Position numbers and translations under genes: made by a program. Below the pieces are notes generated by a model, which was not told the DNA's origin, did not search any database, and saw only the letters and a list, made by a program, of their open reading frames with translations. 64,000 bases of DNA from an uncultured Candidatus Saccharibacteria bacterium (lineage in GTDB: Bacteria > Patescibacteriota > Saccharimonadia > Saccharimonadales > Saccharimonadaceae), in the NCBI GenBank assembly GCA_964633435.1, contig CAZWHA010000003.1:18819-82818 (forward strand), written 5' to 3'. This document shows positions 47 through 38,648 of the stretch, piece after piece; within the stretch, counting starts at the first letter, position 1, and each line of letters opens with the position of its first letter.

Positions 47-876
47 ATGAACATCACCAAAGCTATCATTCCTGTCGCAGGTTGGGGTACGCGCATGCTA
101 CCCATTACTAAATCAATTGAAAAGAGTATGTTGCCAATTGGCAATCGTCCCGTGATCGATTTTGTGGTACAGGACGTGCTAAAGGCTGGCATTAAGGATA
201 TCTATTTTGTAGTAGGTGAGCAGAGTACTCAATTGCAGAGTTACTATCGCAGCAATATTCCACTCAATGATTATTTGCGGCGGGTTGGCAAGACCGACAT
301 GTTAGACCTAGTTCGACCGCTTCAGGGCGTCAATATCCATTTCCTCACACAGTCTAGTACGGGGGGGGTTATGGCACCAGTGTCCCGGTAGGGGTTGCTA
401 GTGAATTTATTGCAGAGGACGAGTCGGCTATAGTGATCATGGGCGACCAATTCTTTTACCGGACCGATGATGGCTCCAATGCGGCTGATTTGATCGAATT
501 TGTATCGTCGCGGAATTTGACTGCCGGATTATACGGCGTCCAGATGCCGATTGACAATATCGACAGCAGTATTGAGGTTGATGCGGATGGTAATTATGTC
601 AGAATCGTCGAAAAGCCCAAACCGGGCGAAGCTCCAACCGACCTGCAGAACGCTAGTTTCTATCTCTTTGACAAGGATATATTCGAGTTGGCTCGCACGT
701 TACCGGTCAATCCCGCTCGTGGCGAATACGAGGTCACTGACGCTATCAATGCCTATGTTGCCAGCGGCAAAAAACTCGCCGTTGGGACTGTCAGCGGTCA
801 GTATATGGAGTGTGGCAGTGTTGCGGGCTGGTTGCGTGCCAACCAGGTCGTTGGCGCGGACTTGCTAAAACCCTAA
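47..876 (+). pseudogene. galU: UTP--glucose-1-phosphate uridylyltransferase-type sugar nucleotidyltransferase, split by a frameshift at a G8 tract
   Basis: ORFs 47..391 and 433..876 are the N- and C-halves of one NTP-transferase (N-term IPVAGWGTRMLPITKSIEKSMLP; C-half VEKPKPGEAP...YEVTDAI). Adding one G to the run at 361..368 reads through as TGGGYGTSVPVGVASEFIAEDESAIVIMGDQ. Confidence 0.8.
361..368 (+). repeat. poly-G tract, G8, inside galU, out of frame (G9 would restore the frame)
   Basis: Counted directly: c360, g361-g368, t369. Confidence 0.95.
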
Positions 877-918
877 ATCTCTGCTACAATTAGACGGTTA
901 ATTTAACTAAAGGAACAG

Positions 919-1224
919 ATGAAAGCAGTCATTCAAGTCGGCGGCAAACAACAGATTGTCGCTGAAAAAGAGACCCTTTTGGTGGACAAGCTACCAGAGG
1001 ACCAGAAAGAGCTCACGTTTGATGCACTGTTGACTTTCGATGATAAAAAAACGACAGTCGGCACGCCAACCGTGAAAGATGTGAAGGTGAAAGCCAAAGT
1101 GGTTGAGCCGCTCGTCAAAGGCGATAAAGTTATCGCGATTCGCTACAAGAGTAAAAAGCGTGTCAATAAAAAGCGCGGTCATCGTCAGGAATATTCTCGC
1201 GTTGAGATCACGTCGATCAAATAA
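919..1224 (+). CDS. rplU: 50S ribosomal protein L21
   Basis: MKAVIQVGGKQ...VKGDKVIAIRYKSKKRVNKKRGHRQ, the typical L21 N-terminus and GHRQ C-terminal motif; 101 aa. Confidence 0.9.
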   Translation: MKAVIQVGGKQQIVAEKETLLVDKLPEDQKELTFDALLTFDDKKTTVGTPTVKDVKVKAKVVEPLVKGDKVIAIRYKSKKRVNKKRGHRQEYSRVEITSIK

Positions 1225-1282
1225 CACGGTTATGCATAGAAAATCGTTCCAAATGGGACGATTTTTTGTTATAATGAGGGGA

Positions 1283-2092
1283 ATGAGTGAGGGTAAATCA
1301 GCCGTGATTATAACGGTCACGAATCAAAAAGGCGGTGTTGGTAAAACGACGACCGCAGTTAATCTGGCATATTCGTTGGCCAAGGATCACAAAGCCGGGG
1401 TGCTGCTGATCGATTTTGATCCGCAAGGCAATGCGACCAGTGGCCTCGGAATTGACAAATCGCAGCTAAAGTCAGTGACTAACGCAGATGGCGTACCAAC
1501 TATTCTCGACGCGATCACGGGTGAGCGACCGCTTGCCGAAGTTGTCCAGCCGACTAATTTTAAACGATTGTCGGTGGCACCAGCGACACCGCAACTGGCC
1601 GATGCTGAGTCAGGCCTTGCCAAGGCCGAACGTCGTTTTGTGCGCCTGCGTGATGCGATTAAGCCGGTTTCTGGTGACTATGACTTTATTATTATTGATT
1701 CGCCACCGTCTCTCAGCTTGTTGACTGTTAATGCGCTGATTGCAGCAGGCCATGTGTTACTGCCGGTTCAAGCAGAGTTTTATGCGCTAGAGGGTTTGGG
1801 TCAACTACTTGAAACTATGCAATTAGTGCGCAAAGGTCTGAATCCAACACTCGAACTGCTGGGTGTGCTCGTCACTATGATGGATTCACGAACGACGCTA
1901 TCCGGTCAGGTGTACGAGGAGGTCGCGAAACATTTCCCAGGCAAAGTCATGAATACTAAAATTCCGCGCAATGTCCGCCTTGCCGAAGCGCCGTCGCATG
2001 GCTTGCCGGTCGGTGCCTATGATCGATTTAGTAAAGGTTCGCGTGCCTACAAGGCCGCAGCCGAGGAAATTGTAAAACGACTAGGCAAATAG
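1283..2092 (+). CDS. parA: chromosome partitioning ATPase ParA/Soj
   Basis: Deviant Walker A NQKGGVGKTTTAVNLA, then LLIDFDPQGNAT and IIIDSPPS. The track ORF start (1103) overlaps rplU, so I use ATG 1283 (or 1274), just after a TATAAT-like box. Confidence 0.88.
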   Translation: MSEGKSAVIITVTNQKGGVGKTTTAVNLAYSLAKDHKAGVLLIDFDPQGNATSGLGIDKSQLKSVTNADGVPTILDAITGERPLAEVVQPTNFKRLSVAPATPQLADAESGLAKAERRFVRLRDAIKPVSGDYDFIIIDSPPSLSLLTVNALIAAGHVLLPVQAEFYALEGLGQLLETMQLVRKGLNPTLELLGVLVTMMDSRTTLSGQVYEEVAKHFPGKVMNTKIPRNVRLAEAPSHGLPVGAYDRFSKGSRAYKAAAEEIVKRLGK

Positions 2093-2169
2093 CGATCTTG
2101 CAGCGCTTCTAGTATATCTCAACAGCAAAAAACACTTAGCCGGAGTGGTTTTGTGGTATAATCGTCGTT

Positions 2170-3069
2170 ATGGTTAAACGAGGGCTAGGAAAAGGATTTG
2201 AAGCGTTAATTCCGACTGACTTGGTCGAGGAGAGTTTTGATCCAACCGCAGCTGAGGATGAAAAGATTTCGGATCTGCGGGTGTTGCCAGTTAAAGACAT
2301 TACGCCGGATCCTAATCAGCCGAGGCGGCATTTCGAAGAGGAGGCACTGCAAGCGCTAGCAGATTCAATTCGCGAGCACGGCGTGTTGCAGCCGATCGTT
2401 GTTGTGCCAAAGCAGGGCGGTTATGAAATTGTGGCTGGCGAACGACGCTGGCGAGCAGCCAAACTGGCCGATCAAACGAAAATCCCTGCCATTATTCGTA
2501 CACTCGGGGCACAACACAAACTCGAACTCAGCATTATCGAAAATGTGCAGCGAACTGATTTGAATCCGCTCGAAACAGCGACGGCATACCTGAAATTGAA
2601 AAACCAGTTCAATATGACTGATACCGAAATCGCTAAACGGGTTGGTAAAGCCCTTAGCACCATTTCTAATCAGATGCGTTTACTCGGGCTGCCGGACTAT
2701 GCCAAGGAAGTCCTGATTCAGGGTGGTATGACTGAGGGTCACGCCAGGCAAATTCTAGCACTGCCGGATGACAAGGCTAAACTGCAGTTATTCGATAATA
2801 TTGTGCGGGATGGTTGGACGGTCCGTAAATGTGAACAGTTCGTCATTGGATACAAAAAGGGTATGAAAGAATCTTCAATAGCGGCGCGGAGCGGTTCGGC
2901 GCACAAGGCGACCTTGACTGAAACTGATGTTACCAAGGCGATTGCTGCTAGAGTGGGATTGAAATCCTCGGCAATCACACAGAAGACAACGGCTCATGGT
3001 GGCGCTATCATTATTAAATTTGCTGACGATACCGAACTAGCACAGATCAAGCGATTGCTCGGTAAATAG
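2170..3069 (+). CDS. parB: chromosome partitioning protein ParB/Spo0J
   Basis: LGKGFEALIP N-terminus, NQPRRHF, GERRWRAAKLA ParB box and an HTH region; lies directly downstream of parA. Confidence 0.9.
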   Translation: MVKRGLGKGFEALIPTDLVEESFDPTAAEDEKISDLRVLPVKDITPDPNQPRRHFEEEALQALADSIREHGVLQPIVVVPKQGGYEIVAGERRWRAAKLADQTKIPAIIRTLGAQHKLELSIIENVQRTDLNPLETATAYLKLKNQFNMTDTEIAKRVGKALSTISNQMRLLGLPDYAKEVLIQGGMTEGHARQILALPDDKAKLQLFDNIVRDGWTVRKCEQFVIGYKKGMKESSIAARSGSAHKATLTETDVTKAIAARVGLKSSAITQKTTAHGGAIIIKFADDTELAQIKRLLGK

Positions 3070-12844: not shown

Positions 12845-12889
12845 ATTGAAAGCGCCTAACCTGAGTACACCCGGGCCTCAGCCGGATCA

Positions 12890-12899
12890 GGGGGGGGGG
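12890..12899 (+). repeat. poly-G tract, G10, intergenic, occupying the -35/spacer position upstream of TATAAT 12913..12918
   Basis: Counted directly: g12890-g12899, t12900. Confidence 0.95.
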
Positions 12900-12951
12900 T
12901 TCTGGTCGTAATTATAATCTAGCTGGAGACGCAGAGTTTTATGATGACTGG

Positions 12952-13365
12952 ATGCGAACAGCGCTAGATACTGGCTTTGCTACGGATACCGTTCGATTAT
13001 TGGTGAATTCGATAGAGCATCTGAGCGCATCAGTATCCGACTATCATAGTACCGCACTCAATGAACATGCAAGTGGTGCGCGGGAACACATTCTGCTAGC
13101 TATTGCGCAGATTAGAGCTTCAATCGAAAGTATGACACGCGAGACCGTTGACGAACTGAATCGAGCTCTGGAATTTTTTGGTGATCAGATACCGCCGATT
13201 GCTATCAGAGTTGAACCAAATAAAAATAATGATGACAAGGGCGTGCGTCGGGTTGAAGGCTTTTTCGCAGATGGTTTAGTGATAGGCCCCATTGTTAATG
13301 GTCAGCCGTATGACGACTTCGTGTTAGAGGTCTTGCCACCCGGGCTCGATGTTGACGACGAATAA
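12952..13365 (+). CDS. hypothetical protein
   Basis: 137 aa ORF with coding-like composition; no family recognised. Confidence 0.5.
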   Translation: MRTALDTGFATDTVRLLVNSIEHLSASVSDYHSTALNEHASGAREHILLAIAQIRASIESMTRETVDELNRALEFFGDQIPPIAIRVEPNKNNDDKGVRRVEGFFADGLVIGPIVNGQPYDDFVLEVLPPGLDVDDE

Positions 13366-13470: not shown

Positions 13471-13998
13471 ATGACGCACGAAACCTCAAACCTTAGAGAA
13501 GTAAACCAAGATGATATGTGGTTAGAAAACCCTTGGGATGTTTTAGCAAAAGTTAAGGATTCTAATCCAGACGACCTTATCGGTAATCCATGGGGGGGGG
13601 CGTTAGGTAAGGTTGCGGATCGAAAAGAACTGCGCATGAAGGCCGATATGGTTGATGCAGTTCTGGGCGCTGCCGGTGATGACCACAAAGCACGCGCTGG
13701 CTATGACGCCCTATCTTTAGGTGATAAAGAAGGCTTCGCTATGATGTTGGCCAGTACGAGCAATAGCTTGCTGAGGGGATCGAATAATGGTAATACATTA
13801 AATATGATGGCCCATCTCAATGCATATTCTACAGCTCAGGGTGCTTTGCGGGCTGCATATGCTGCAAAACATGGCAAGACTTCATGGGGGCGTCAGATGG
13901 CCCAACGAAGGCATGAACGAAAAATGAAGAAGCTCGAGAATACCTATCTTAAATACGGTGGTACGGATAGAGCTGCACACCTAACTGTTAGAAAGTAA
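13471..13998 (+). CDS. hypothetical protein with a duplicated NPW motif
   Basis: 175 aa ORF. TTGACT-17-TAAACT promoter near 13400 and SD aaaaggaaac. Internal repeat ENPWDVLAKVKD / GNPWGGALGKVAD. Confidence 0.55.
   Translation: MTHETSNLREVNQDDMWLENPWDVLAKVKDSNPDDLIGNPWGGALGKVADRKELRMKADMVDAVLGAAGDDHKARAGYDALSLGDKEGFAMMLASTSNSLLRGSNNGNTLNMMAHLNAYSTAQGALRAAYAAKHGKTSWGRQMAQRRHERKMKKLENTYLKYGGTDRAAHLTVRK
13592..13600 (+). repeat. poly-G tract, G9, in frame (tgg ggg ggg gcg = W-G-G-A)
   Basis: Counted directly: t13591, g13592-g13600, c13601. Confidence 0.95.
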
Positions 13999-16053: not shown

Positions 16054-16524
16054 CTACTCTTCGTGGCCGAGAGCTTGGTTGATCCGGGACGAGGAGTCGG
16101 GCTTTACTAGACCGCGAACGTCGGTGCCGACACCAAATACCATTTTAATGCCTTTTTCGATGCACATATCGCCCTCTGGTCCGGGCAGTCTGCCTCGATC
16201 TGATCGATCGCCGCCATTGGCAAAGATTAATTCGTTGTCAGGGGGGGGGTACTTGTTGGCGACTAGCTCGAGAGTTTTTGTGCTCGGCCAGTGATTACCG
16301 GCCGGGTCAATGCCGATAATAACCTCATCAACACCGCGTAGAGCCGCCATTAGTCGTGCCCGATTATCCTGATCCAGGATGATTTTACCTTTCTTTTCCA
16401 ACTGCTGCTCATCGTTATTAACCAAAACGATCAGATAATCGCCGAGCTGCCGTGCGGCCTCGATCATGTCCAAATGTCCACCATGCAGTGGGTTGAAAAA
16501 ACCGCTAACGATCACGCGTTTCAT
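16054..16524 (-). CDS. cytidylyltransferase-like (HxGH) nucleotidyltransferase, TagD/RfaE-domain-II-like
   Basis: VSGFFNPLHGGHLDMIEAARQLGDYLIVLVNND carries the HxGH motif; 156 aa. Confidence 0.75.
   Translation of the reverse strand: MKRVIVSGFFNPLHGGHLDMIEAARQLGDYLIVLVNNDEQQLEKKGKIILDQDNRARLMAALRGVDEVIIGIDPAGNHWPSTKTLELVANKYPPPDNELIFANGGDRSDRGRLPGPEGDMCIEKGIKMVFGVGTDVRGLVKPDSSSRINQALGHEE
16241..16249 (+). repeat. poly-G tract, G9 (C9 on the coding strand, in frame, encodes Y-P-P-P)
   Basis: Counted directly: a16240, g16241-g16249, t16250. Confidence 0.95.
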
Positions 16525-16563: not shown

Positions 16564-17820
16564 ATGAGAGCAACCGAATTATTTACGAGGACGAGCAAAA
16601 CTGCACCTGCCGACGAGGTAGCGAAAAATGCCCAGCTGCTGATTAGAGCAGGGTTTGTGTACAAGGAAATGGCGGGGGCGTACGCCTATTTGCCGCTCGG
16701 TCTGCGCGTGCTCGAAAAGATCAAACAGATCGTGCGCGAGGAAATGAATGCGGTTCGTTCAAATGAGCTCATTATGACTACCTTGCAGCGCAAGAATATC
16801 TGGGAGAAAACAACTCGCTGGGATGACAATGTGGTGGATATTTGGTTCAAAACGAAACTCAAAGATGACACCGAGGTGGGTCTTGGCTGGAGTCACGAAG
16901 AGCCAATTGTCGAAATGATGAAGCAATTCGTCCATAGTTATAAGGATCTGCCGGTTAGTCTGTATCAATTTCAGACTAAAATGCGTAACGAGCTGCGTGC
17001 GAAAAGTGGTGTTATGCGTGGTCGTGAGTTTGTGATGAAAGACATGTACAGTTTTCATGCTACTCGCGAGGATCTCGACACGTACTATAACGAAACGATA
17101 GAGGCATACAAGCGAGTATACGATCGACTGGGGATCGGTAACGACACGTATGTGACCTTTGCGAGTGGCGGAGCATTTACTAAATTTAGCCACGAATTTC
17201 AAACGATTTGTGAGGCTGGTGAAGATGTTATTTACCTGCATCGGGAAAAGAATATAGCGATCAACGAAGAAGTCATCGATGATGCGATCAAGGAACTTGG
17301 CGTTAATCGCGATGAGCTTGAAAAAGTGAAAACAGCCGAAGTGGGCAACATCTTCAACTTTGGTACGCAAAAAACTGACGAGATGGACCTCTATTATGTT
17401 GACGAAAATGATCAACAGCAGTCGCTCTACATCGGCTCATATGGGATTGGCGTAACGCGTGTTATGGGCGTGATTGCCGAGAAATCGAGTGATGAACGCG
17501 GTCTGATTTGGCCAGAGAGCATCGCGCCATTTCGAGTGTATTTAGTGCAGATTGGTGATGATGCAGCGGTGAAGACTGCCGCCGAGGAACTGTACCGGGA
17601 ACTAGAAAGCCGCGGTGTTGAGACCTTTTACGATGAACGAACCGATGCACGTCCGGGCGAAAAATTCGCCGATGCTGACCTGATCGGTATTCCGCACCGT
17701 GTGGTGATTAGTCCCAAGACCTTGGCCGAAAACAAGATCGAATACAAGGCTCGAACTGCTGACCAGAGCGCGATCTTGACCAGGGATGAGTTGTTTGCTA
17801 CACTAGGCACTACTGCCTAG
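16564..17820 (+). CDS. proS: prolyl-tRNA synthetase (short form, no large INS editing domain)
   Basis: MRATELFTRTSKTAPADEVAKNAQLLIRAGFV N-terminus with class II motifs. ATG 16564 follows TGCTATAAT; the track start 16474 overlaps the neighbouring gene. Confidence 0.9.
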   Translation: MRATELFTRTSKTAPADEVAKNAQLLIRAGFVYKEMAGAYAYLPLGLRVLEKIKQIVREEMNAVRSNELIMTTLQRKNIWEKTTRWDDNVVDIWFKTKLKDDTEVGLGWSHEEPIVEMMKQFVHSYKDLPVSLYQFQTKMRNELRAKSGVMRGREFVMKDMYSFHATREDLDTYYNETIEAYKRVYDRLGIGNDTYVTFASGGAFTKFSHEFQTICEAGEDVIYLHREKNIAINEEVIDDAIKELGVNRDELEKVKTAEVGNIFNFGTQKTDEMDLYYVDENDQQQSLYIGSYGIGVTRVMGVIAEKSSDERGLIWPESIAPFRVYLVQIGDDAAVKTAAEELYRELESRGVETFYDERTDARPGEKFADADLIGIPHRVVISPKTLAENKIEYKARTADQSAILTRDELFATLGTTA

Positions 17821-17859
17821 ACTGAGGCGTAACTTCTATAGATTAAAGGAGGGTTTGAT

Positions 17860-18321
17860 ATGGCAAAGAAGCAATATGATTTGACACTACATGGCAAGCG
17901 TGAGCTAGAGAACGAACTGAAAGATTTGGTTGGTAGTCGCAGCGCGATTGCTGATCGTATCGCCGAGGCGCGGTCGTTTGGTGATCTGAGCGAAAATGCT
18001 GAATACTCAGCTGCCCGCGAGGAACAGGCTCGCGTCGAGAGTCGCATTGCCGAGATCGAGGAGATTCTATCGAGTGCCGAAATTATCGAGGCTGACAAAA
18101 CCGATGGCGAAGTGGGTCTCGGTGACACTGTGGTGTTGAAATCAGGTCGATCGACAAATGAATATATCCTTGTTGGTGCGGTTGAGGCCGATCCAGCGAG
18201 CGGCAAGATCAGCAATGAAAGCCCGCTCGGGGCACAGCTGATTGGCAAAAAAGTTGGCGACAAGGTCGCTATCGAAACACCAAAGGGCGAGAAATCTTTT
18301 GAAATCCTTGAAATTAAATAA
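17860..18321 (+). CDS. greA: transcription elongation factor GreA
   Basis: FGDLSENAEYSAAREEQ coiled-coil tip motif; 153 aa; SD aaggagg. Confidence 0.9.
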   Translation: MAKKQYDLTLHGKRELENELKDLVGSRSAIADRIAEARSFGDLSENAEYSAAREEQARVESRIAEIEEILSSAEIIEADKTDGEVGLGDTVVLKSGRSTNEYILVGAVEADPASGKISNESPLGAQLIGKKVGDKVAIETPKGEKSFEILEIK

Positions 18322-18356
18322 TTGACACGTAGACAGTTTATGATAAAATATCTGTC

Positions 18357-18875
18357 ATGAATTATTACAGAGGTGAACAGACGAATTTAACTCAGGCTCA
18401 GCGGAATCTGCGCGATAAGTATAATGCCTCTCCGCCAGAGTTCAGTCCTAATGCCAGTCGACGTCAAGTAATGGAGCGCATGCTAGAGATAGCGGGACTG
18501 AGGATAGAGACTCCAGTCTGGTGGACTATTGCTGATAGGTTTGATACCGCAGCGTATATCGTGAACGACCTTATCGAGGAGCATATAGAGACGGATGTAG
18601 CTAGACGCGGTTCCTCTGCTGTTCCATTTGCAGATTTTATAATCAGCCGGCTAGAGGAAATGATAGCAGCTGATGATAAGATGCGCTTGGCTGAGAGAAG
18701 AGACTTCGCGGCAGCTGCGGCATTGCAGTCAACTACTGATGTAGCCGTTTCATCGGAAGGACAGGAAACTCCAGACGAATTGCGTCGTCGAGTACGGGCG
18801 ACACTAGGAGGCTCTAATGGGGGACAGCAAGGTCGGCGACGGTATTCTAATTCTCATCACAGGCGTCGTCGCTAG
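18357..18875 (+). CDS. hypothetical protein with an Arg-rich C-terminal tail
   Basis: 172 aa ORF with a TTGACA...TAAAAT promoter at about 18324..18352; no family recognised. Confidence 0.5.
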   Translation: MNYYRGEQTNLTQAQRNLRDKYNASPPEFSPNASRRQVMERMLEIAGLRIETPVWWTIADRFDTAAYIVNDLIEEHIETDVARRGSSAVPFADFIISRLEEMIAADDKMRLAERRDFAAAAALQSTTDVAVSSEGQETPDELRRRVRATLGGSNGGQQGRRRYSNSHHRRRR

Positions 18876-19296
18876 AATTCGTATCAGAACATTGTTTACA
18901 GATACCAAATAGCTCGAAATGATGTTTGGTCGGCGCTAATCTGGCTTTGATCGTCAGGTCGTGCAGTAACCGTTCGACACCATGATCATCGATTGGTGTC
19001 GTCTTGCCACAGCGCTCACAGGTGGCATGGTGATGGTGCGGTCGGAAATCCTCACCGAGTTCATAGTAAACTTTGAACCCACGCGGGACTTCGCGGACTA
19101 TGCCAGCCGCTTGGAGCGATGAAATTGATCTATAAATGCTCGTAAAATGGGCTGATCCGGTGTTCATAGCGATGATTTCTTGTATTAGTAACGGTCTATC
19201 TGTAGTCATCAGAATATGAAAAATCTCCTGACGATTGCCAGTGAGGCGTAAATTATGAGTAGCGAGCTTTTCCTTGAATAGGGTATTATTTTGCAT
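18847..19296 (-). CDS. Fur-family metalloregulator (Zur-like by context)
   Basis: Winged-helix N-terminus, HHHATCERCGK...CKQC metal sites. Divergent from a ZIP transporter. ATG 19296 preferred over the track TTG 19326. Confidence 0.8.
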   Translation of the reverse strand: MQNNTLFKEKLATHNLRLTGNRQEIFHILMTTDRPLLIQEIIAMNTGSAHFTSIYRSISSLQAAGIVREVPRGFKVYYELGEDFRPHHHHATCERCGKTTPIDDHGVERLLHDLTIKARLAPTKHHFELFGICKQCSDTNSSDDACDEN

Positions 19297-19308
19297 TATA
19301 TCATCCTT

Positions 19309-19327
19309 ATTGCAAATTATTTGCAAT
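19309..19327. promoter_or_regulatory. 19 bp perfect palindrome ATTGCAAAT-T-ATTTGCAAT, candidate Fur/Zur box
   Basis: Self-complementary except for the central base. Lies 13 nt upstream of the Fur-family start, in the divergent region shared with the ZIP gene. Confidence 0.55.
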
Positions 19328-19400
19328 AATTATAGCATACTGATTATAATAAAGACCATACCAGTAAAGTAACTGTAATTAAAAAGGATAGGTAGTAATT

Positions 19401-20171
19401 ATGTCAACAATGACGCAAGTAATTTTCTTTTCGCTCGTTGGAGGAGTGTTCTCGCTCATCGGCGGTATTATCTTGCTAGCACGCAAGCGTTGGGCACAGC
19501 ATCTCATAAAATATGCCACGCCATTTGCTGCTGGGGCGCTCCTCGCCGCCGCATTTATTGATCTGTTGAGCGAAGCGGCGCACGAGGGCAATGCCGAGGT
19601 GGCGCTCCAGGCGACTTTGACAGGTATTTTGGTGTTTTTCCTGCTCGAGCGGGCGATTCATTGGTTTCATCATCATAGCTATGGTCGTGAGCATCAACAT
19701 GAGGTCAAGAGTGCCAAAGTGCCACTCATCATTATCGGTGATGTGCTCCATAACTTTATTGATGGTATTGCTATCGCCGCCGCGTTTTTGGTGTCACCAG
19801 CAACGGGTGTTGTGGTGACGCTGGCCGTCGCCTTGCACGAGATACCACAGGAGATTGGTGATTTTGGCCTGTTGCTCAGTAAAGGCCTCAGTCGGCGCAA
19901 GGTGTTACTCGTCAACGTTGTCTCAGCGCTGGCGACAACTGTCGCTGCAGTGCTATTTTTCGCCCTGGGTCAGAATGTTGCGGTACCTCTCGACATCGTG
20001 TTGGGACTGACGGCCGGATTCTTTATCTATATTGCAGTCAGTGATATTATTCCGGAAATCCACGCTCACGAGCAGCAGCGATTCGTTGGTTGGCAATCAG
20101 TTCTGCTCATTGTTGGAGTGATCTTGGTCAGTGTTATTACTACTATGTTACACGGCTTTATTGAAGCGTAA
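19401..20171 (+). CDS. ZIP family divalent-metal (zinc) transporter
   Basis: HNFIDGIAIAAAF and ALHEIPQEIGDF signatures, a His-rich loop (HHHSYGREHQHE), multi-TM. Confidence 0.85.
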   Translation: MSTMTQVIFFSLVGGVFSLIGGIILLARKRWAQHLIKYATPFAAGALLAAAFIDLLSEAAHEGNAEVALQATLTGILVFFLLERAIHWFHHHSYGREHQHEVKSAKVPLIIIGDVLHNFIDGIAIAAAFLVSPATGVVVTLAVALHEIPQEIGDFGLLLSKGLSRRKVLLVNVVSALATTVAAVLFFALGQNVAVPLDIVLGLTAGFFIYIAVSDIIPEIHAHEQQRFVGWQSVLLIVGVILVSVITTMLHGFIEA

Positions 20172-20200
20172 TTGTTAAAACTAATCGTAAAGGAGATATC

Positions 20201-21136
20201 ATGCGAATAGCATTTTTAGGCAAGGGCGGCAGTGGCAAGACGACGGTGTCGTCGCTAGTAGCGAGACTCGCTCCGGAGAGCTTTGACGAAATATATGTCA
20301 TAGACTCTGATATCAATAAACATATGAAAAGTGCTCTCGGTCTGAGTGATCAACAGGTTCATCCTTTCACTCCAGTATTCAAAGCATTTGAATCAAAAGT
20401 ACGACAATATCACCCGGCACTCAATGGCTTAACGGCGCTGCCGCGGACGTTACCAGTCTGGGACACGAGCGTTATTACTAAAATAAGTTTCGACGAGAAA
20501 CCATTTAGTGGAAATCAGCCTATCAACAATACGCTAGTGTACGAGCTAGGTAGTTACAATGCCGATACGATGGGGTGGTCGTGCCATCATAATGCGCTAG
20601 GGAAATTGCAGTTTGTGTTGACGCATGCGGTCGATACGCCCGAACAATTGATCATTGCTGATTTAACGGCTGGTGCGGATGTATTTGGTGTGGGCATATT
20701 GGGATTGTTTGACAAAGTCTATGTTGTCGTTGAACCTACTATCAAGAGTACCGATATTTTCCTGCAGTTAAAAGAATTGGCAGGGCATGATGATGTCGAG
20801 CTAGAGCCGATTGCTAATAAAGTAATGGATGAAACCGATCTTGCCTTTATTGCTGATCGTATAGGCCAACTACCGGGGTATACTGTGAAACTATCTAATT
20901 TCGTGCGTCGGCTAGAGCGCGGCGAGACAGTTGCCACTAACGATATCGAGACAGAGAATTACCAGACCATAGAGCAGCTGCTCCATGACGTAGCAAACAT
21001 TCGTCGTAACAGCAGAGAGATGTATAAACATATCATAAAAAACCACCGCCGTGCCGCCAAAAATTGGCCCAAAGGGAAATTTGGGGACGTAGACCTGCTA
21101 ACCTTAATCAATCCAGATTATGAACCGATCGCATAA
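20201..21136 (+). CDS. CooC/MinD-family P-loop ATPase (putative metallochaperone-like)
   Basis: MRIAFLGKGGSGKTT Walker A, IYVIDSDIN, IIADLTAGADVFG...VYVVVEPT. Aligns by eye to the CooC layout, but C-H-H replaces the CxC metal motif. Confidence 0.7.
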   Translation: MRIAFLGKGGSGKTTVSSLVARLAPESFDEIYVIDSDINKHMKSALGLSDQQVHPFTPVFKAFESKVRQYHPALNGLTALPRTLPVWDTSVITKISFDEKPFSGNQPINNTLVYELGSYNADTMGWSCHHNALGKLQFVLTHAVDTPEQLIIADLTAGADVFGVGILGLFDKVYVVVEPTIKSTDIFLQLKELAGHDDVELEPIANKVMDETDLAFIADRIGQLPGYTVKLSNFVRRLERGETVATNDIETENYQTIEQLLHDVANIRRNSREMYKHIIKNHRRAAKNWPKGKFGDVDLLTLINPDYEPIA

Positions 21137-22160
21137 ATTACGATTCCTGTCGCGCGATGAGGTGATAGAGCTCGGTGGCATGGATATATCCATGGTGGTT
21201 GGACAGGTAGAGGCGGCACTACTGGCTTGGGACAGAGGTGATGTATTGCAGCCTGCGAAAACCACGTTAAAATACCTCGATCAGCACGAACGCTATGGCG
21301 GGCTTGTCAATGTACTGCCGGCGGCGCTGCGTGACGAACGAGGAGAGATCTATGCAGTAAAAGCGTTAGGTGCTATGCCGAGCAATGTAGAGCATGGGCT
21401 ACCGCGTGCCACAGGAGTCATTACTCTATTTGATGGTACTACCAAAACACCAGTGGCAGTGATGGATGGGCAGGTGATTAGCGCTATGCGGACTGGTGCA
21501 GTCAGTGCACTGGCGGCGCGAGTATTGTGCTCGACTGATACAAAACATCTTGGTTTGATTGGGGCGGGGGTAAATATGCGGACACAGCTACTGGGTCTAC
21601 TATATACATTATCAGAGCTGGAAACAGTTACGGTATACAGCCGTGGCGATAGTAAGCATGATTTCGTGGCTACTATGAGTAAACGTTTTCCGTCAGTCAA
21701 TTTTTGTGCAGCCAACTCTTCTCGCGAAGCAGTGGAGCATGCCGATGTTGTCGTGACCTGCGTGGCAAACGCCGATCAACCTGTCGTGGCGGCCGATGAT
21801 TTGAATCGACCAGGTTTAACAGTGTTTAATATCGGCTGTCTCGAAAATGAACCGAAATTGCTCGCTACTATGGATCTAGTGGTGGCCGATTATTGGGAAC
21901 ACTCTAAGCATCGTGGCGTACAAACCCATGCGGTTGCCTATCAGCAAGGTTATATACGTGACGAGGACGTAGTAGACTTGAAAGATATTGTGGGGGGGGG
22001 TAAGGTCAGAGGGAGGACGAGCCGGGAACAACGGATCTTCTTTGCTCCGACGGGGCTTGGCGTTGAAGATGTAGCGGTAGCACGCGAAATACTGAGTCGA
22101 GCCGAATCGCAGAACGTCGGCCAACTCTTGGAACTATGGAGTGACGAGCCATGGATTTAG
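21120..22160 (+). CDS. ornithine cyclodeaminase / mu-crystallin family NAD(P)-dependent enzyme
   Basis: ISAMRTGAVSALAAR followed by the Rossmann segment LGLIGAGVNMRTQL; 346 aa; overlaps the upstream gene by 17 nt. Confidence 0.7.
   Translation: MNRSHKLRFLSRDEVIELGGMDISMVVGQVEAALLAWDRGDVLQPAKTTLKYLDQHERYGGLVNVLPAALRDERGEIYAVKALGAMPSNVEHGLPRATGVITLFDGTTKTPVAVMDGQVISAMRTGAVSALAARVLCSTDTKHLGLIGAGVNMRTQLLGLLYTLSELETVTVYSRGDSKHDFVATMSKRFPSVNFCAANSSREAVEHADVVVTCVANADQPVVAADDLNRPGLTVFNIGCLENEPKLLATMDLVVADYWEHSKHRGVQTHAVAYQQGYIRDEDVVDLKDIVGGGKVRGRTSREQRIFFAPTGLGVEDVAVAREILSRAESQNVGQLLELWSDEPWI
21992..22000 (+). repeat. poly-G tract, G9, in frame (gtg ggg ggg ggt = V-G-G-G)
   Basis: Counted directly: t21991, g21992-g22000, t22001. 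Confidence 0.95.
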
Positions 22161-23488
22161 CTGCTATTAAACGTTGGACATTGGCTCTGGAGCAATTATC
22201 GCCACACGTTCGTCGTGAACTACGTAGCACTATTTCGCCCATAGAGATCGGTGGCGAGTCTGCCACTTTGCTGGCCGCACCGCTATTTCTATCGTCTAAA
22301 ACTTACGAAAAAGTGGTGGCAGCAGCCGAGACCTTTGTCGATGCTACGGTAGCAATAGAAACTAACTCGCGATTTAAAGCCGGTAACGTCGTGTATGACA
22401 GACTATATAATTCTCTGAGCGCCAATGGTAAAACACTAATTGATCGCTCCAAACCTGTTACGAGCGAGACGGCAAAACGGCGTTTTCGCCGGCTGGATGG
22501 ATTTTTACTGAGCAATCAAGCACCAACATTTATTGAGATGAATCAATCTGCACCACTGGCTATCAGCTTTTATCAACGAGCAAAGCAACTTGTGACCGAC
22601 ATTGCCGATAGAGCGGATATAGCAATTACTGAGAGTGGTGATTTATACTCTGATTTGGCCAAGTGGTTTATCTCGGAACTCCGAGCTATTGGTCACAATC
22701 AGGATTCTGCTACAATTGCCGTCAGTATGGAGCGGGGCTATCCGGCGAAGTTTGTCGATCTGCCGGTAGCATGCGACGGCATCGCAGCTGCCGCTAAAAA
22801 ACAAGGCCTAGAACTAACATTTATATTAGCCGAACCAACCGAATTTACTTGGGACGGTATGCGCGGCTACGTAAAGGGCGTTAGTTTTGATTTGTTATGG
22901 CGAAATACCGTATATCTGCAAAATTATCCTGAAACTCTTGCTGAATATGAAGCTATTCGTTATGGCGGTATGCCGATGATTAATGATCTACACTCGTGGT
23001 TCTTTCGGTCAAAAGAATTTTTTGCGATCCTATGGGATGATGCTATGCAATCAGAGCTAGCCAAGTTCGGTATCGATGTAGCAAAAGTCCGCCATCTCGT
23101 CCCGCGAACAATCAGCCTTAATCAGTTAGACAAGGATGAGAAGGACAGGTCTAGTTGGATATTAAAGCGCTGTGACGACGGTTTTGGTAAAGGAATTGTC
23201 TTTGGGTCAGAACTGACCAGAGCAGAGTGGGTCGAGTATATAACCGGCCAACATGGAACCGATTGGATTGCCCAAGAGATTGTCAGGCCGCTCGCTACTG
23301 AGCTTCCGATCATCTTGTCTGATGGCAGTGTTCAGTCGGTTACGTGCCATTGTGACATAGATCCATTTGTTGTAAATGGTAGTGTGTCGGGAATGTTGGT
23401 ACGAGCGTTGCCCGTAAATACTGGAACCAATAGAAAAATGAACATTGTTGAGGGCGCAGCGATTGGCTGCGGTATGTTACAATATTAA
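22151..23488 (+). CDS. ATP-grasp-type ligase (glutathionylspermidine synthase / eukaryotic GSH synthetase-like fold)
   Basis: FRRLDGFLLSNQAPTFIEMNQSAPLAISF resembles the R-x-D...E-x-N-(A)DTP pre-ATP-grasp motif. ILKRCDDGFGKGIVFG and WIAQEIVRP resemble nucleotide-binding strands. Overlaps the upstream gene by 10 nt. Confidence 0.55.
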   Translation: MDLAAIKRWTLALEQLSPHVRRELRSTISPIEIGGESATLLAAPLFLSSKTYEKVVAAAETFVDATVAIETNSRFKAGNVVYDRLYNSLSANGKTLIDRSKPVTSETAKRRFRRLDGFLLSNQAPTFIEMNQSAPLAISFYQRAKQLVTDIADRADIAITESGDLYSDLAKWFISELRAIGHNQDSATIAVSMERGYPAKFVDLPVACDGIAAAAKKQGLELTFILAEPTEFTWDGMRGYVKGVSFDLLWRNTVYLQNYPETLAEYEAIRYGGMPMINDLHSWFFRSKEFFAILWDDAMQSELAKFGIDVAKVRHLVPRTISLNQLDKDEKDRSSWILKRCDDGFGKGIVFGSELTRAEWVEYITGQHGTDWIAQEIVRPLATELPIILSDGSVQSVTCHCDIDPFVVNGSVSGMLVRALPVNTGTNRKMNIVEGAAIGCGMLQY

Positions 23489-35454: not shown

Positions 35455-35484
35455 TTGACTTGGTTTGCTGTCCGGGTATATACT
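35455..35484 (+). promoter_or_regulatory. strong sigma70-like promoter TTGACT-(16-18)-TATATACT with no adjacent start codon
   Basis: TTGACT 35455..35460; TATATA/TATACT at 35477..35484. Nearest plausible start codon is about 190 nt downstream. Confidence 0.6.
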
Positions 35485-35624
35485 ATTGATCGTGAAAGCC
35501 ATGACGAAGGTTGTAATCAACCAAACCACCGCCGGGCACCATAACATGGTGTGCTTGCTCGGTTTGATTGTGTCGCGCCCTTCGGCAGAAGCTTTCTAGT
35601 ACCAATACAATTACAAGCAAAGCA

Positions 35625-35654
35625 GCCGAAGGGAAACCTCCGGCGTTTTTGTTT
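35625..35654 (+). terminator. intrinsic terminator-like hairpin (GAAA tetraloop) plus U-tract inside the leader, 22 nt before a small ORF
   Basis: gccgaagg-gaaa-cctccggc (7 of 8 positions paired) followed by gtttttgtttg. Confidence 0.6.
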
Positions 35655-35675
35655 GTCGACAGAAGGGAAAGAACA

Positions 35676-35909
35676 ATGACCGTTCTCCGCTCCAAAGTGG
35701 AAGCGTTTTTGACGGCCCGTTCGTCGAGGCATTTCGTTTCATGGCCAGTGGCTGCGCAAACGCTGTGTCTCGGGGGGGGGCTAGGCACCAACCGGCAGGT
35801 TGGTCGCGCCATCCGGCGCGGCTACTTGTCAGTCTGGTGCATCGATGGCAGTGAATGTGTGGTCCTGACTGCGGGACCGCGCCTGCTGGCGGCTACATAT
35901 TCCTCATAA
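35676..35909 (+). CDS. small hypothetical protein (77 aa), possibly winged-helix-like; contains a G9 tract
   Basis: ATG preceded by agaagggaaag. MTVLRSKVEAFLTARSS...TNRQVGRAIRRGYLSVWCIDGSECVVLT has a helix-turn-helix plus wing-like pattern. Weak support; the stretch could be non-coding. Confidence 0.35.
   Translation: MTVLRSKVEAFLTARSSRHFVSWPVAAQTLCLGGGLGTNRQVGRAIRRGYLSVWCIDGSECVVLTAGPRLLAATYSS
35772..35780 (+). repeat. poly-G tract, G9, in frame within the putative small ORF (L-G-G-G-L)
   Basis: Counted directly: c35771, g35772-g35780, c35781. Confidence 0.95.
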
Positions 35910-35931
35910 GGGAATCATCGCTGCCAGCAGA

Positions 35932-36123
35932 GGCCATACTGCTCCTCACGAGGGAAACACTATGGCCAGGGCGGCGGTAATTGGCCACAAGCCGAAAACC
36001 CGCCGCCCTGAGGACCCCAGGCTCTACCACCACCACTGCCAGTACCGCATGGTCTGCCACTTCCTTTCTTTGTCACAACCAGTGTCGTCCTCGCAGGCTC
36101 ATTTGTGGCCTCGGACGACACTG
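35932..36123 (+). other. three consecutive strong hairpins in a GC-rich ORF-poor stretch (candidate structured RNA)
   Basis: ggccata 35932..35938 / tatggcc 35961..35967; agggcggcgg 35968..35977 / ccgccgccct 36000..36009; cagtgtcgtcc 36080..36090 / ggacgacactg 36113..36123. All three stems are perfect. Confidence 0.6.
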
Positions 36124-36137: not shown

Positions 36138-36166
36138 TTGCACAAAATTAGCGAAACCTTTATACT
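36138..36166 (+). promoter_or_regulatory. promoter TTGCAC-17-TATACT, 7 nt before ATG 36174 (leaderless-type)
   Basis: TTGCAC 36138..36143 and TATACT 36161..36166. Confidence 0.6.
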
Positions 36167-36173
36167 GATAGCT

Positions 36174-36584
36174 ATGGAACATCTTAGGCACAAGATTTTA
36201 TTGGTCGAAGACGACGAAGTATTGGCCAACGTCTATCGACAGCGGCTAGAGCTAGAAGGTTTCGAAGTCGAGCGCGTCGACAACGGCGAGGACGCATTGC
36301 AGGCGGCGCTCAGATTCAAGCCAGAGCTGATCCTGCTGGATGTCATGATGCCGAAACTGAACGGTTTCGACGTACTGGATATCCTGCGTAACACCTCAGC
36401 AACCCGCAATATTCACATTATTATGCTGACGGCGCTCAGCCAGCCCAAGGATGCTGAACGTGCCAAGGACCTCGGTGCCGATGATTTCCTCGTCAAATCC
36501 CAGGTAGTGATCAGTGACGTTGTTGATCGCATCAAACACCATCTCGGCATGACAGAGCAAAAGTGGACAAATAACTCGAAATAA
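36174..36584 (+). CDS. single-domain response regulator (receiver only)
   Basis: KILLVEDDEV...LILLDVMMPKLNGFDVL...MLTAL...K: the CheY-like acidic pocket, phospho-Asp and conserved T/K positions. Track start 36105 rejected. Confidence 0.85.
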   Translation: MEHLRHKILLVEDDEVLANVYRQRLELEGFEVERVDNGEDALQAALRFKPELILLDVMMPKLNGFDVLDILRNTSATRNIHIIMLTALSQPKDAERAKDLGADDFLVKSQVVISDVVDRIKHHLGMTEQKWTNNSK

Positions 36585-36679
36585 TCTGTCGTTAACATAG
36601 GCGCATTGACTTTTATGACTAATTGTGCTAGTATTGATATTATAACCATATAACATCAACAAAAGGAACCTTTATCATT

Positions 36680-37543: not shown

Positions 37544-37562
37544 CTAATGGGTTAAAAACTAT

Positions 37563-37593
37563 AAAATCCCTCCTGAAATCTAGGAGGGATTTT
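37563..37593. terminator. bidirectional intrinsic terminator
   Basis: aaaatccctcct / aggagggatttt perfect 12 bp stem between the convergent hypothetical gene and rpmA. Confidence 0.75.
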
Positions 37594-37610
37594 AGTTAGC
37601 AATAATCTGA

Positions 37611-37883
37611 TTAGTCGACGCAAACTTGGGTGCGCCAGACAGTTTTGCCGGTAAAGTTCTTGATCTTGCGGCGAACAAACTTGACGACGCCGTCTTTGTC
37701 GGCGTGAATAGTGAAGTTACGACTGACGTAGGTACCGGGTCCGGCGATCTTGCTAGCGCCGACTTGGCGAACAATCACCTGACCAGCGTTAACTTTCTGG
37801 CCGCCAAACACCTTTACACCGAGGCGCTGACCAGCGTTGTTATGGATATTTTTGGACGAACCGCCCGCTTTAACATGAGACAT
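37611..37883 (-). CDS. rpmA: 50S ribosomal protein L27
   Basis: MSHVKAGGSSKN...GQRLGVKVFGGQKV.AGQVIVRQ.G is the L27 signature. TTGCAT-17-TACAAT promoter and SD gaaggag lie upstream on the minus strand. Confidence 0.9.
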   Translation of the reverse strand: MSHVKAGGSSKNIHNNAGQRLGVKVFGGQKVNAGQVIVRQVGASKIAGPGTYVSRNFTIHADKDGVVKFVRRKIKNFTGKTVWRTQVCVD

Positions 37884-38011
37884 ACTTTAAAACACTCCTT
37901 CGTTATTTTGGTCCATTGTACACTAAAAAGACTTTTCATGCAAGCGAAATTAATTGACAGATCATCGAGTCTATGCGACAATGTGGTTAACAACACGGAA
38001 AGGGGATGAGG

Positions 38012-38648
38012 ATGGTCAAGCGAGAGCGCGAAATCTGGACGATTGATATTGATGATGTCAGCCTGAGATATGGCGGGGCATTTGCTAACTTTAGTAACCG
38101 AGCTGGCTGGACGCGGGGATTAACGGCAAAGGGCTACAATGAGCAATGGGGTGAGCTATGGGGGGGGGGCAGACGTTGATGAGATAGCCCGGCGGGCATC
38201 GGTACTAAATCGTGGTATGGCTCCTTTTCTGCGACCGGTCAGGGATGCGCCGCTAGCGTTGGCCGCTCTGGCGCAGGCACGCGATCTCATCGCATTTACC
38301 TCACGACCACGATCTCTTCACACTACGACGGTCGCTAGTCTCGACCAGCATTTCCCCGATACTTTTCGCGATATTAAATATCTCGATGGCGGGTGGGGTG
38401 ATCGTGGTGCCATCGAATCCGTTACCAAGGGCGAGGCGGCGGTTAGGCTCGGAGCTTCAACTCATATTGATGACCAGGTGCGCCATGCGGTTGGCATGGC
38501 CGGGGCTGGCGGTGTGGGCTTGCTATTCGGCGACAGCCACGCTGCGGCAACGGCGACAGTAGGCGACGGTGTGGTGAGAGTGCCGACCTGGAGAGATGTG
38601 CTGCGGCACGCCGATATCGATCCAGACTCAGTGTTTCCTGAGAACTAG
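38012..38648 (+). pseudogene. HAD-superfamily phosphatase (5'-nucleotidase-like), split by a frameshift at a G10 tract
   Basis: SD ggaaagggg then ATG 38012. MVKREREIWTIDIDDV carries the HAD DxD motif I and stops at 38179. Removing one G from 38160..38169 fuses it to ORF 38139..38648 (...ELWGGADVDEIARRAS...). TTGACA-17-GACAAT promoter at 37955..37983. Confidence 0.65.
38160..38169 (+). repeat. poly-G tract, G10, out of frame (G9 would restore the frame)
   Basis: Counted directly: t38159, g38160-g38169, c38170. Confidence 0.95.

What the first reader, a model, noticed from the sequence alone, without database searches (positions are those of the whole stretch)
361..38169. Seven G8-G10 homopolymer tracts, all G on the plus strand: candidate contingency (phase-variable) loci
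Long G runs occur at 361-368 (G8), 12890-12899 (G10), 13592-13600, 16241-16249, 21992-22000, 35772-35780 (all G9) and 38160-38169 (G10). With roughly equal base use, the expected number of G runs of 8 or more on one strand of 64 kb is below one (64000 x 0.25^8 x 0.75 is about 0.7).

By eye I saw no C run of 7 or more and no A run of 8 or more, and only one T8. None of the seven tracts lies beyond 38.2 kb. All seven read G on the plus strand, even the one inside a minus-strand gene.

Two tracts interrupt otherwise intact genes exactly at the run (galU-type, HAD nucleotidase-type). Both frames are restored at G9. G9 is also the length of all four in-frame tracts, which encode GG(G) or PPP. The seventh tract sits in a promoter -35/spacer.

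This is the architecture of slipped-strand contingency loci known from Campylobacter, Neisseria and Haemophilus. I am not aware of it being described for CPR/Saccharibacteria-like genomes, but I cannot check that here. Alternatives are homopolymer consensus errors, or rescue by transcriptional slippage.
Basis: partly seen in the sequence, partly recalled or inferred. Interest (0 to 1): 0.8.

Follow-up and report, generated by a model that had tools for sequence, protein, structure and literature searches.

The report
Poly-G on/off switches in a Saccharibacterium
Seven runs of 8-10 G sit inside seven genes of an uncultured sewage Saccharibacterium (a tiny bacterium that lives attached to other bacteria), and public assemblies of the same species carry different run lengths that put at least four of the genes in or out of frame, which is the slippage-based switching known from Campylobacter but apparently not yet described in this phylum.

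Summary
Seven G8-G10 runs lie on the + strand at the stated coordinates. The next-longest G run is a single G6, and no C run exceeds 5. About 0.04-1.4 such runs are expected by chance. In 1.27 Mb from related Saccharibacteria there are none.

All seven tracts are inside genes. It lies in codons 15-18 of a conserved 172-aa gene.

G9 is the in-frame length at every locus. In the window three genes are off (T1 G8, T2 G10, T7 G10) and four are on.

Other assemblies of the same species (94-100% nucleotide identity) show different lengths:
- T1: G8 and G9.
- T2: on and off forms.
- T3: G9 and G10.
- T7: G7, G8, G9 and G10, including G7 and G10 on identical flanking sequence.
- T4: probably G9 and G10.

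The only uncompensated one-base indels inside genes between the strains compared are at the poly-G tracts.

The best reading is slippage-prone contingency loci in a phylum reported to lack MutS and MutL. Switching within one population and any adaptive value are inferred, not shown. This is a new member of a known kind. I found no earlier report for CPR bacteria (Candidate Phyla Radiation, the group that contains Saccharibacteria).

The parts
361..368 (+). T1: G8 tract, out of frame in the window (OFF). G9 is the in-frame length.
   Evidence: The 97.6%-identical strains L086 and L088 carry G9 and an intact 276-aa gene. The G8 product (114 aa) is also on a Logan contig.
47..876 (+). galU-like sugar-1-phosphate nucleotidyltransferase gene, split at T1 (codon 105 of 276).
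   Evidence: Pfam NTP_transferase E=1e-24. NCBIfam galU TIGR01099 scores 160 bits on the homolog P0135, below the 326.8 cutoff. A roughly 88%-identical relative, P0135, reads 'TGGYG' where this species reads 'TGGGYG'.
12890..12899 (+). T2: G10 tract, out of frame (OFF). G9 is the in-frame length.
   Evidence: The 172-aa ON forms P0137 and P0138 are on 5 Logan contigs. The 137-aa OFF calls are P0136 (window) and P0139.
12846..13365 (+). Conserved hypothetical gene (172 aa at G9). It starts 2 nt after the stop codon of the ribosome recycling factor (RRF) gene. T2 lies in codons 15-18.
   Evidence: It is colinear with the 169-aa and 167-aa homologs that occupy the same position in L083 and L085. 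No Pfam or NCBIfam match.
13592..13600 (+). T3: G9 tract, in frame (ON), encoding W-G-G-A.
   Evidence: The predicted G10 frameshift product (46 aa, ending ...NPWGGGVR) is present by exact match on 2 Logan contigs. A 116-aa C-terminal gene call (P0144) is on a contig of the same length, 2533 nt.
13471..13998 (+). 175-aa gene of unknown function, restricted to this lineage, carrying T3 at codons 41-44.
   Evidence: The only homolog outside the species cluster is P0157 (69% identity), which reads 'GDG' with no tract.
16241..16249 (-). T4: G9 on the + strand, C9 on the coding strand, in frame (ON), encoding PPP.
   Evidence: G9 is also present in GCA_050258475.1 (L002, 96% identity). The gene is in frame on 19 contigs. 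The predicted C10 product (95 aa...KYPPP then TGA) matches a Logan gene call, P0158, although a contig ending at the tract would give the same result.
16054..16524 (-). Adenylyl/cytidylyltransferase-family gene (156 aa) carrying T4 at codons 92-94.
   Evidence: Pfam CTP_transf_like E=1e-12. NCBIfam TIGR00125 is above its cutoff; the TagD-like and RfaE-II-like models are below theirs. The gene is absent from the 80%-aa relatives L083 and L085.
21992..22000 (+). T5: G9 tract, in frame (ON), encoding G-G-G.
   Evidence: G9 is also present in the Logan contig L001, which is 100% identical. No length variant was found.
21120..22160 (+). Gene of the ornithine cyclodeaminase/mu-crystallin (OCD) family, SbnB-like, 346 aa, carrying T5 at codons 291-294.
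   Evidence: Pfam OCD_Mu_crystall E=3e-50. The tract adds one residue relative to all 20 aligned homologs that cover this region. A frameshift would remove the conserved FFxPTGLG C-terminus.
35772..35780 (+). T6: G9 tract, in frame (ON), encoding G-G-G.
   Evidence: G9 is also present in L097, L098, L102 and L104. The alternative allele in L099, L100 and L103 reads GGGGCGGG at the aligned position.
35676..35909 (+). 77-aa gene of unknown function carrying T6 at codons 33-35.
   Evidence: Two alleles that are very divergent at the DNA level (BLAST could not align this stretch) keep similar amino acids, so the ORF is coding. It is called as a gene in other assemblies.
38160..38169 (+). T7: G10 tract, out of frame (OFF). 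G9 is the in-frame length.
   Evidence: G10 is also present in L096 (100% identical), L105 and L106. G9 is in L097-L101, L103 and L104. G7 is in L102 and in P0126/P0128. G8 is inferred from P0127.
38012..38648 (+). HAD-superfamily, NT5C-like hydrolase gene (211 aa at G9), split 57 + 169 aa in the window. T7 lies at codons 50-53.
   Evidence: Five of 6 family members hit Pfam NT5C. The DxDxV, TSRP, K and DD motifs are conserved. The AlphaFold model's top Foldseek hits are all HAD hydrolases.

Best explanation
The seven tracts are hypermutable poly-G simple sequence repeats inside seven protein-coding genes of one Saccharibacteria species found in sewage.

Mechanism: during replication the nascent and template strands misalign within the G run (slipped-strand mispairing), which adds or removes a G. 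The phylum is reported to lack MutS/MutL mismatch repair, so such errors would persist. Each one-base change shifts the reading frame. G9 is the in-frame (ON) length at all seven loci, while G7, G8 and G10 truncate the protein (OFF).

In the window the galU-like, 172-aa hypothetical and HAD/NT5C-like genes are OFF, and the other four are ON.

Shown:
- The tracts exist and are far above chance.
- They are specific to this species-level lineage.
- They are encoded with GGG codons against normal codon usage.
- Independent assemblies carry different lengths at T1, T2, T3 and T7, and probably at T4, including different lengths on identical flanking sequence.

Inferred:
- That the changes are reversible and frequent within a population.
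- That MutS/MutL are absent in this particular genome.
- That the resulting mixture of ON/OFF states is useful, for example by varying surface glycans or nucleotide metabolism during interaction with host bacteria or phages.
For: - Statistics: 7 runs observed against 0.04-1.4 expected, and none in 1.27 Mb of relatives.
- Bimodal run lengths: nothing between G6 and G8.
- All seven tracts are intragenic and in frame at G9.
- T1 is G8 in the window and G9 in L086 and L088.
- T2 has 172-aa ON forms on 5 contigs and 137-aa OFF calls on 3. P0138 (ON) and P0139 (OFF) are identical over their shared 137 residues.
- T3: the predicted G10 frameshift peptide was found by exact look-up on 2 contigs. The contig-length match (2533 nt) suggests, but does not prove, that T2 is ON on the same contig, the reverse of the window.
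- T7 occurs as G7, G8, G9 and G10. L102 (G7) and L105/L106 (G10) have identical 718-nt flanks and differ by 0.4% from L097 (G9), and G10 recurs in a clade that is 2.9% divergent.
- Lengths are reproducible within a lineage across samples and assemblers, which argues against random error.
- Across 8 strain comparisons, the only uncompensated one-base indels inside ORFs are at T1 and T7.
- GGG makes up 11.5% of Gly codons, and the nine other Gly-Gly-Gly tripeptides in the window use only GGC, GGT or GGA, never GGG.
- The tracts are absent at the orthologous sites of relatives at 63-88% aa identity, and T1, T2 and T5 add 1-2 residues there.
- Saccharibacteria are reported to lack MutS and MutL (PMC8406219).
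- C. jejuni shows the same signature: modal G9, insertion bias at G8/G9, deletion bias at G10/G11, and poly-G mostly on the coding strand (PMC3401435).
Against: - No read-level data were available, so within-sample heterogeneity and switching rates are unknown.
- Consensus lengths are stable within a lineage across several samples, for example G9 at T7 in three Rotterdam sewage samples whose names carry dates about a month apart.
- T5 and T6 show no length variant, although few assemblies cover them. The T4 variant is ambiguous.
- The genes are not classic phase-variable classes. There is no restriction-modification system, adhesin or glycosyltransferase, and three of the seven have unknown function.
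- Only 64 kb of the genome was seen, so genome-wide frequency and the absence of mismatch repair in this genome are untested.
Confidence: 0.8

Rival explanations
1. Hypermutable but not adaptive. A lineage-specific mutational bias in a repair-poor genome lets short G runs grow to an equilibrium near G9. The frameshifts would then be drift or early pseudogene formation, not a bet-hedging system.
For: - The tracts arose in glycine or proline loops of ordinary enzymes, adding 1-2 residues.
- No classic surface or restriction-modification genes are involved.
- An equilibrium at G9 is expected from mutation bias alone, as in C. jejuni.
- The phylum lacks MutS/MutL.
Against: - All Saccharibacteria are reported to lack MutS/MutL, yet 1.27 Mb from relatives has no run of 8 or more. 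Loss of repair alone therefore does not create tracts.
- The ON length dominates at every locus, and OFF states occur on several unrelated backgrounds without further decay of the genes.
- The tracts persist uninterrupted across strains that differ by 3-6%.
Confidence: 0.15
2. Sequencing or consensus error. Every tract is really G9, and the G7, G8 and G10 calls are homopolymer miscalls in metagenome assemblies.
For: - Every locus is in frame at G9.
- Homopolymers are error-prone in PCR-based libraries and long reads.
- I could not see reads.
Against: - G10 at T7 is reproduced in an independent Logan assembly of a sibling run (L096) and in two further samples (L105, L106).
- G9 is reproduced in seven assemblies from two lineages.
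- G7 differs from G10 by 3 nt and is seen in both an NCBI MAG and a Logan contig.
- The G8 product at T1 is in both NCBI and Logan.
- The sample names point to Illumina/MEGAHIT data.
Confidence: 0.03
3. Expression does not depend on DNA length. RNA polymerase slippage or ribosomal frameshifting on the G run restores the frame, so the 'OFF' genes are still expressed.
For: Transcriptional slippage rescues frameshifted homopolymer genes in some reduced genomes (established knowledge, mostly for A/T runs). It cannot be tested with sequence alone.
Against: DNA-level length variation is directly observed and explains the pattern without it. Slippage rescue is best documented for A/T runs of 9 or more, not for G runs. 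It could at most add leaky expression on top of the DNA switch.
Confidence: 0.05

Closest known systems
Campylobacter jejuni poly-G/C phase-variable genes (about 29 loci in NCTC11168)
   Same: - Intragenic poly-G tracts of G8-G10 with a modal length of G9.
- Mostly G on the coding strand.
- ON/OFF switching by frameshift, with multiple loci per genome.
- Weak conservation of the tracts between related lineages.
- No functional MutS/MutL-type repair.
(PMC3401435; PMC4965091.)
   Different: - C. jejuni is a cultivable pathogen with measured switching rates.
- Its loci are mainly capsule, LOS, flagellar-glycan and restriction-modification genes.
- Here the genes are a galU-like enzyme, a cytidylyltransferase, an OCD-family enzyme, a HAD hydrolase and three unknowns, and no rates are known.
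Neisseria, Haemophilus and Helicobacter simple-sequence contingency loci
   Same: Slipped-strand mispairing in repeats within ORFs gives reversible frameshifts, and several loci combine into many 'phasotypes' (PMC5084427, PMC2651432).
   Different: Those species also use tetra- and pentanucleotide repeats and promoter tracts, and Neisseria retains mismatch repair. Here poly-G is the only repeat class, and all seven tracts are inside ORFs.
Hypervariable 9-mer (PTD) repeat gene in a Gracilibacteria (BD1-5) genome
   Same: It is the only report of replication-slippage hypervariation in a CPR bacterium that I found (PMC6851277).
   Different: That case is an in-frame 9-nt tandem repeat that varies protein length at one locus. 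It is not a set of homopolymer frameshift switches at many loci.
Homopolymeric-tract microevolution in Bordetella pertussis and Mycobacterium tuberculosis
   Same: Poly-G/C tracts within genes differ in length between closely related isolates and inactivate genes (PMC1891110; PMC13596474).
   Different: Those are GC-rich genomes in which such runs are common by composition. Here the runs stand out against a background that otherwise avoids them.

Membership tests
SSR-mediated contingency (phase-variable) loci | A homopolymer or short tandem repeat long enough to slip (G/C of 7-8 or more), located in an ORF or promoter | tested here: met
   There are seven G8-G10 tracts, all inside ORFs.
SSR-mediated contingency (phase-variable) loci | Repeats over-represented relative to composition and to relatives | tested here: met
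   7 observed against 0.04-1.4 expected. None in 1.27 Mb of relatives. The GGG-GGG encoding goes against normal codon usage.
SSR-mediated contingency (phase-variable) loci | Repeat-number differences between closely related genomes that switch the frame ON and OFF | tested here: met
   Met at the DNA level for T1 and T7. Met through exact protein products for T2 and T3. T4 is ambiguous. No variant was found for T5 or T6.
SSR-mediated contingency (phase-variable) loci | High-frequency, reversible switching within a clonal population | not testable with these tools
   This needs read-level length distributions or culture. The only indirect evidence is recurrence of the same length on different backgrounds and different lengths on identical flanks.
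SSR-mediated contingency (phase-variable) loci | Permissive repair background (mismatch repair absent or limited) | not tested
   The literature reports no MutS or MutL in Saccharibacteria (PMC8406219). The rest of this genome was not available.
SSR-mediated contingency (phase-variable) loci | The affected genes influence interaction with the environment, host or phage | tested here: inconclusive
   The galU-like and cytidylyltransferase genes could feed surface-glycan or teichoic-acid synthesis. The OCD-family gene, the HAD hydrolase and the three unknowns give no clear link.
GalU (UTP-glucose-1-phosphate uridylyltransferase) | Match to the equivalog model above its curated cutoff | tested here: not met
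   Tested on the homolog P0135, not on the window protein: TIGR01099 scores 160.6 bits against a 326.8 cutoff. Pfam NTP_transferase is met on the repaired window protein. I therefore call it galU-like only.
HAD superfamily / NT5C-like nucleotidase (T7 gene) | HAD Rossmannoid fold with the DxDx(T/V), S/T, K and DD motifs | tested here: met
   The motifs are conserved in the alignment. The Foldseek top hits are all HAD hydrolases. Five of 6 members hit PF06941, though the species' own protein does not reach E of 0.1.

The most novel reading that the evidence does not exclude
One species-level lineage of Saccharibacteria, in a phylum without MutS/MutL, has evolved and maintains a multi-locus poly-G 'phasome'. 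There are at least seven switchable genes in 64 kb, which could mean dozens genome-wide. The organism would use it as a bet-hedging system in its episymbiotic life, through host attachment, surface glycans or phage escape. This would be the first contingency-locus system described in CPR bacteria. The HAD-gene tract may even be conserved at the same codon in a second species: P0155 reads as the frame-shifted version of 'WGALWGG'.
Probability: 0.45. Interest if true: 0.75.

Novelty: new member of a known kind. Interest (0 to 1): 0.6.

Why it matters
CPR bacteria are mostly uncultured, and little is known about how they adapt to hosts and phages. A set of poly-G switches would give them a fast, heritable way to vary phenotype.

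It can also be read directly from metagenomes. ON/OFF states at defined loci could be tracked across samples and time series, such as the sewage data sets found here, without cultivation.

There is a practical point for annotation as well. The 'pseudogenes' and split genes at these sites in MAGs of this species are probably switch states, not errors or gene decay.

Tried and rejected
**Searches that found nothing useful**
- Exact look-ups of the window's RRF, OCD-family, cytidylyltransferase and GreA proteins found nothing.
- The first genome-contig scan with the RseP/M50 protease found no relative.
- The second scan gave only distant Saccharibacteria, at 53-57% identity.
- The JGI metagenome scan with prolyl-tRNA synthetase (ProRS) found no contig of the same species, at most 77% aa identity. 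I used those 80 loci as a control set instead.
- The rpsB look-up returned only contigs that end before T2.

**Readings rejected**
- The promoter reading of T2 is rejected. Homologs start right after the RRF gene, and a G9 tract gives a colinear 172-aa protein that exists in other assemblies.
- A non-coding or RNA reading of the T6 region is rejected for 35676-35909, because two divergent alleles conserve the protein. Rfam found nothing there.
- A special replication-strand mechanism for the all-G bias is not needed.

**Other dead ends**
- A single-sequence AlphaFold model of the T7 protein was useless (pLDDT 31). The 6-sequence alignment gave a usable model.
- Predicted frameshift products for T5, T6, T1 at G10 and T4 in the window background were not in the collection.
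- No other repeat class was found in the window.

Full report
**Observation**

I call them T1 to T7 in that order.

The run-length distribution is bimodal: 16 G5, one G6, no G7, then one G8, four G9 and two G10. The longest C run is 5. The window is 49.7% GC with positive GC skew throughout. By my rough ORF-based gene set, 61 of 71 genes are on the + strand.

The expected number of G runs of 8 or more is 1.4 under base composition alone. It is about 0.04 when the observed decay of run lengths is extrapolated with the tracts excluded.

As an empirical control I pooled 98 loci (1.27 Mb) from related Saccharibacteria. They contain no G/C run of 8 or more and four of length 7. The probability that all seven runs fall in the window by chance is 6e-10.

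**Organism**

The closest species representatives for the OCD-family protein (ornithine cyclodeaminase/mu-crystallin family) are Candidatus Saccharibacteria MAGs at 53-57% identity. Same-species contigs (94-100% nucleotide identity) occur in many public assemblies. These include a Dutch (Rotterdam) sewage series and an NCBI MAG, GCA_050258475.1, that is labelled as an actinomycete. The window's own proteins are on an NCBI contig of 111,360 nt.

**Anatomy: all seven tracts are inside genes, and G9 is the in-frame length at every one**

| Tract | Length in window | Gene | Position in gene | State | Key calls |
|---|---|---|---|---|---|
| T1 | G8 | galU-like nucleotidyltransferase | codon 105 of 276 | OFF | 5-7 |
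| T2 | G10 | conserved hypothetical, 172 aa | codons 15-18 | OFF | 41, 43, 54, 55 |
| T3 | G9 | 175-aa gene, unknown function | codons 41-44 | ON | 68, 69 |
| T4 | G9 (C9 on the coding strand) | minus-strand cytidylyltransferase-family gene | codons 92-94, PPP | ON | 5, 7, 56 |
| T5 | G9 | OCD-family (SbnB-like) gene | codons 291-294 | ON | 13, 40 |
| T6 | G9 | 77-aa gene, unknown function | codons 33-35 | ON | 45 |
| T7 | G10 | HAD-superfamily, NT5C-like hydrolase | codons 50-53, split 57 + 169 aa | OFF | 65, 66, 73, 75 |

- T2 is not a promoter tract. In two syntenic relatives the homologous gene starts directly after the stop codon of the ribosome recycling factor (RRF) gene. In the window, TTG at 12846 plus a G9 tract gives a colinear 172-aa protein. 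Exactly that protein exists in other assemblies.
- T3's gene is real, because it has a 69%-identical homolog elsewhere.
- T5 adds one residue relative to every aligned homolog that covers the region.
- T6's gene is real, because two very divergent alleles among strains keep the amino-acid sequence similar. The other allele reads GGGGCGGG at the aligned site.
- T7's gene is HAD-like on three grounds: conserved catalytic motifs, NT5C matches in five of six family members, and a model whose structural neighbours are all HAD hydrolases.

**Evidence that the tract lengths change**

- T1 is G9, with an intact 276-aa gene, in two assemblies at 97.6% identity. The window's G8 product also occurs in a Logan assembly.
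- T2 has 172-aa ON forms on five contigs and 137-aa OFF calls on three. One ON/OFF pair is identical over the shared 137 residues.
- T3: I predicted the peptide that a G10 tract would give (46 aa, ending NPWGGGVR), and it is present by exact match on two Logan contigs. One contig appears, from its matching length of 2533 nt, to also carry T2 in the ON form, the reverse of the window.
- T7 occurs as G7, G8, G9 and G10.
  - The 718 nt around the tract are identical in L102 (G7) and in L105 and L106 (G10), and differ by 0.4% from L097 (G9).
  - G10 recurs in the window's clade, which is 2.9% away.
- T4 is in frame on 19 contigs. The predicted C10 product matches one gene call, but a contig ending at the tract would give the same result.
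- T5 and T6 showed no variants, though few assemblies cover them.
- Across eight strain comparisons, the only uncompensated single-base indels inside ORFs are at T1 and T7.
- Lengths are reproducible within a lineage across samples and across assemblers, which argues against random homopolymer error.

**Lineage specificity and origin**

Syntenic contigs from relatives at about 80% amino-acid identity have no G/C run of 6 or more across the region that holds four tracts in the window. At each orthologous site the relatives have ordinary Gly-containing loops.

GGG makes up only 11.5% of glycine codons in the window. The nine other Gly-Gly-Gly tripeptides use only GGC, GGT or GGA codons, never GGG. 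The homopolymers are therefore not a side effect of glycine-rich peptides.

**Mechanism**

The best explanation is slipped-strand mispairing in G runs that are long enough to slip, in a phylum for which MutS and MutL were not found (PMC8406219). This gives frameshift ON/OFF switching of seven genes.

The G8-G10 range with a mode at G9 matches Campylobacter jejuni. There, G8 and G9 tracts tend to gain a base and G10 and G11 tracts tend to lose one (PMC3401435).

Relatives that presumably share the repair deficit avoid such runs entirely. Their presence in this species therefore needs either selection for mutability or a further lineage-specific change. I cannot tell which.

The all-G strand bias follows from the general excess of G runs on this strand: setting the seven tracts aside, 17 G runs of 5 or more against 2 C runs.

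**Limits**

- I could not see reads, so heterogeneity and reversibility within a sample are inferred.
- Only 64 kb of the genome was available.
- Adaptive value is not shown, and the genes are not the classic phase-variable classes.

**Novelty**

Full-text searches that combined Saccharibacteria, Patescibacteria, CPR or TM7 with phase variation, homopolymers, contingency loci or slipped-strand mispairing found no report of poly-G switches in this group. The nearest case is an in-frame 9-mer repeat in a Gracilibacterium. The mechanism itself is well known, so I file this as a new member of a known kind.

Noticed in passing
window 35455-35662 (+): About 170 nt of non-coding sequence is nearly 100% conserved among strains, more than the neighbouring genes. 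It has a promoter-like TTGACT-18-TATACT at 35455-35484, a long hairpin (MFE -61 kcal/mol, z = -3.7) and a terminator-like hairpin followed by a T run. There is no Rfam match, so it is a candidate small RNA.
   Followed up: partly
window 35670-35932: The 77-aa gene that carries T6 exists as two very divergent alleles (BLAST could not align this stretch) among strains that are otherwise 95-97% identical, which looks like allelic replacement.
   Followed up: partly
window 16054-16524 (-): The cytidylyltransferase gene that carries T4 is absent from the syntenic contigs of the 80%-aa relatives L083 and L085, so it is an accessory insertion between the Rce1-like gene and the prolyl-tRNA synthetase (ProRS) gene.
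   Followed up: no
L002 and L102 (GCA_050258475.1, contigs JBLMYV010000005.1 and JBLMYV010000045.1): This NCBI MAG is labelled Sphaerimonospora mesophila, an actinomycete. These two contigs are about 96% identical to the Saccharibacteria window and about 49% GC. Either the label is wrong or the bin mixes an episymbiont with another organism.
   Followed up: no
protein P0155 (Logan contigs of another species; no DNA fetched): This 167-aa homolog of the T7 hydrolase (64% identity) begins 'MGSVMGGVDADE'. That is exactly the one-base-shifted reading of 'WGALWGGVDADE', which suggests an out-of-frame G8 tract at the same codon in a second species.
   Followed up: no
L087, L107, L108 (window about 11.8-12.6 kb): Three Logan contigs from SRR31864888-90 all end just upstream of the T2/T3 region, which may reflect strain heterogeneity there.
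   Followed up: no
window 17817-23488: The genes here run Fur, ZIP metal permease, CbiA-like ATPase, SbnB-like OCD-family gene (with T5) and a 445-aa unknown, with the last three overlapping or tightly packed. This may be a metal-linked small-molecule operon under the T5 switch.
   Followed up: no
window 1103-3069 and the whole window: parA and parB lie at 1.1-3.1 kb and GC skew is positive along all 64 kb, so the window probably starts near the replication origin and runs along the leading strand.
   Followed up: no
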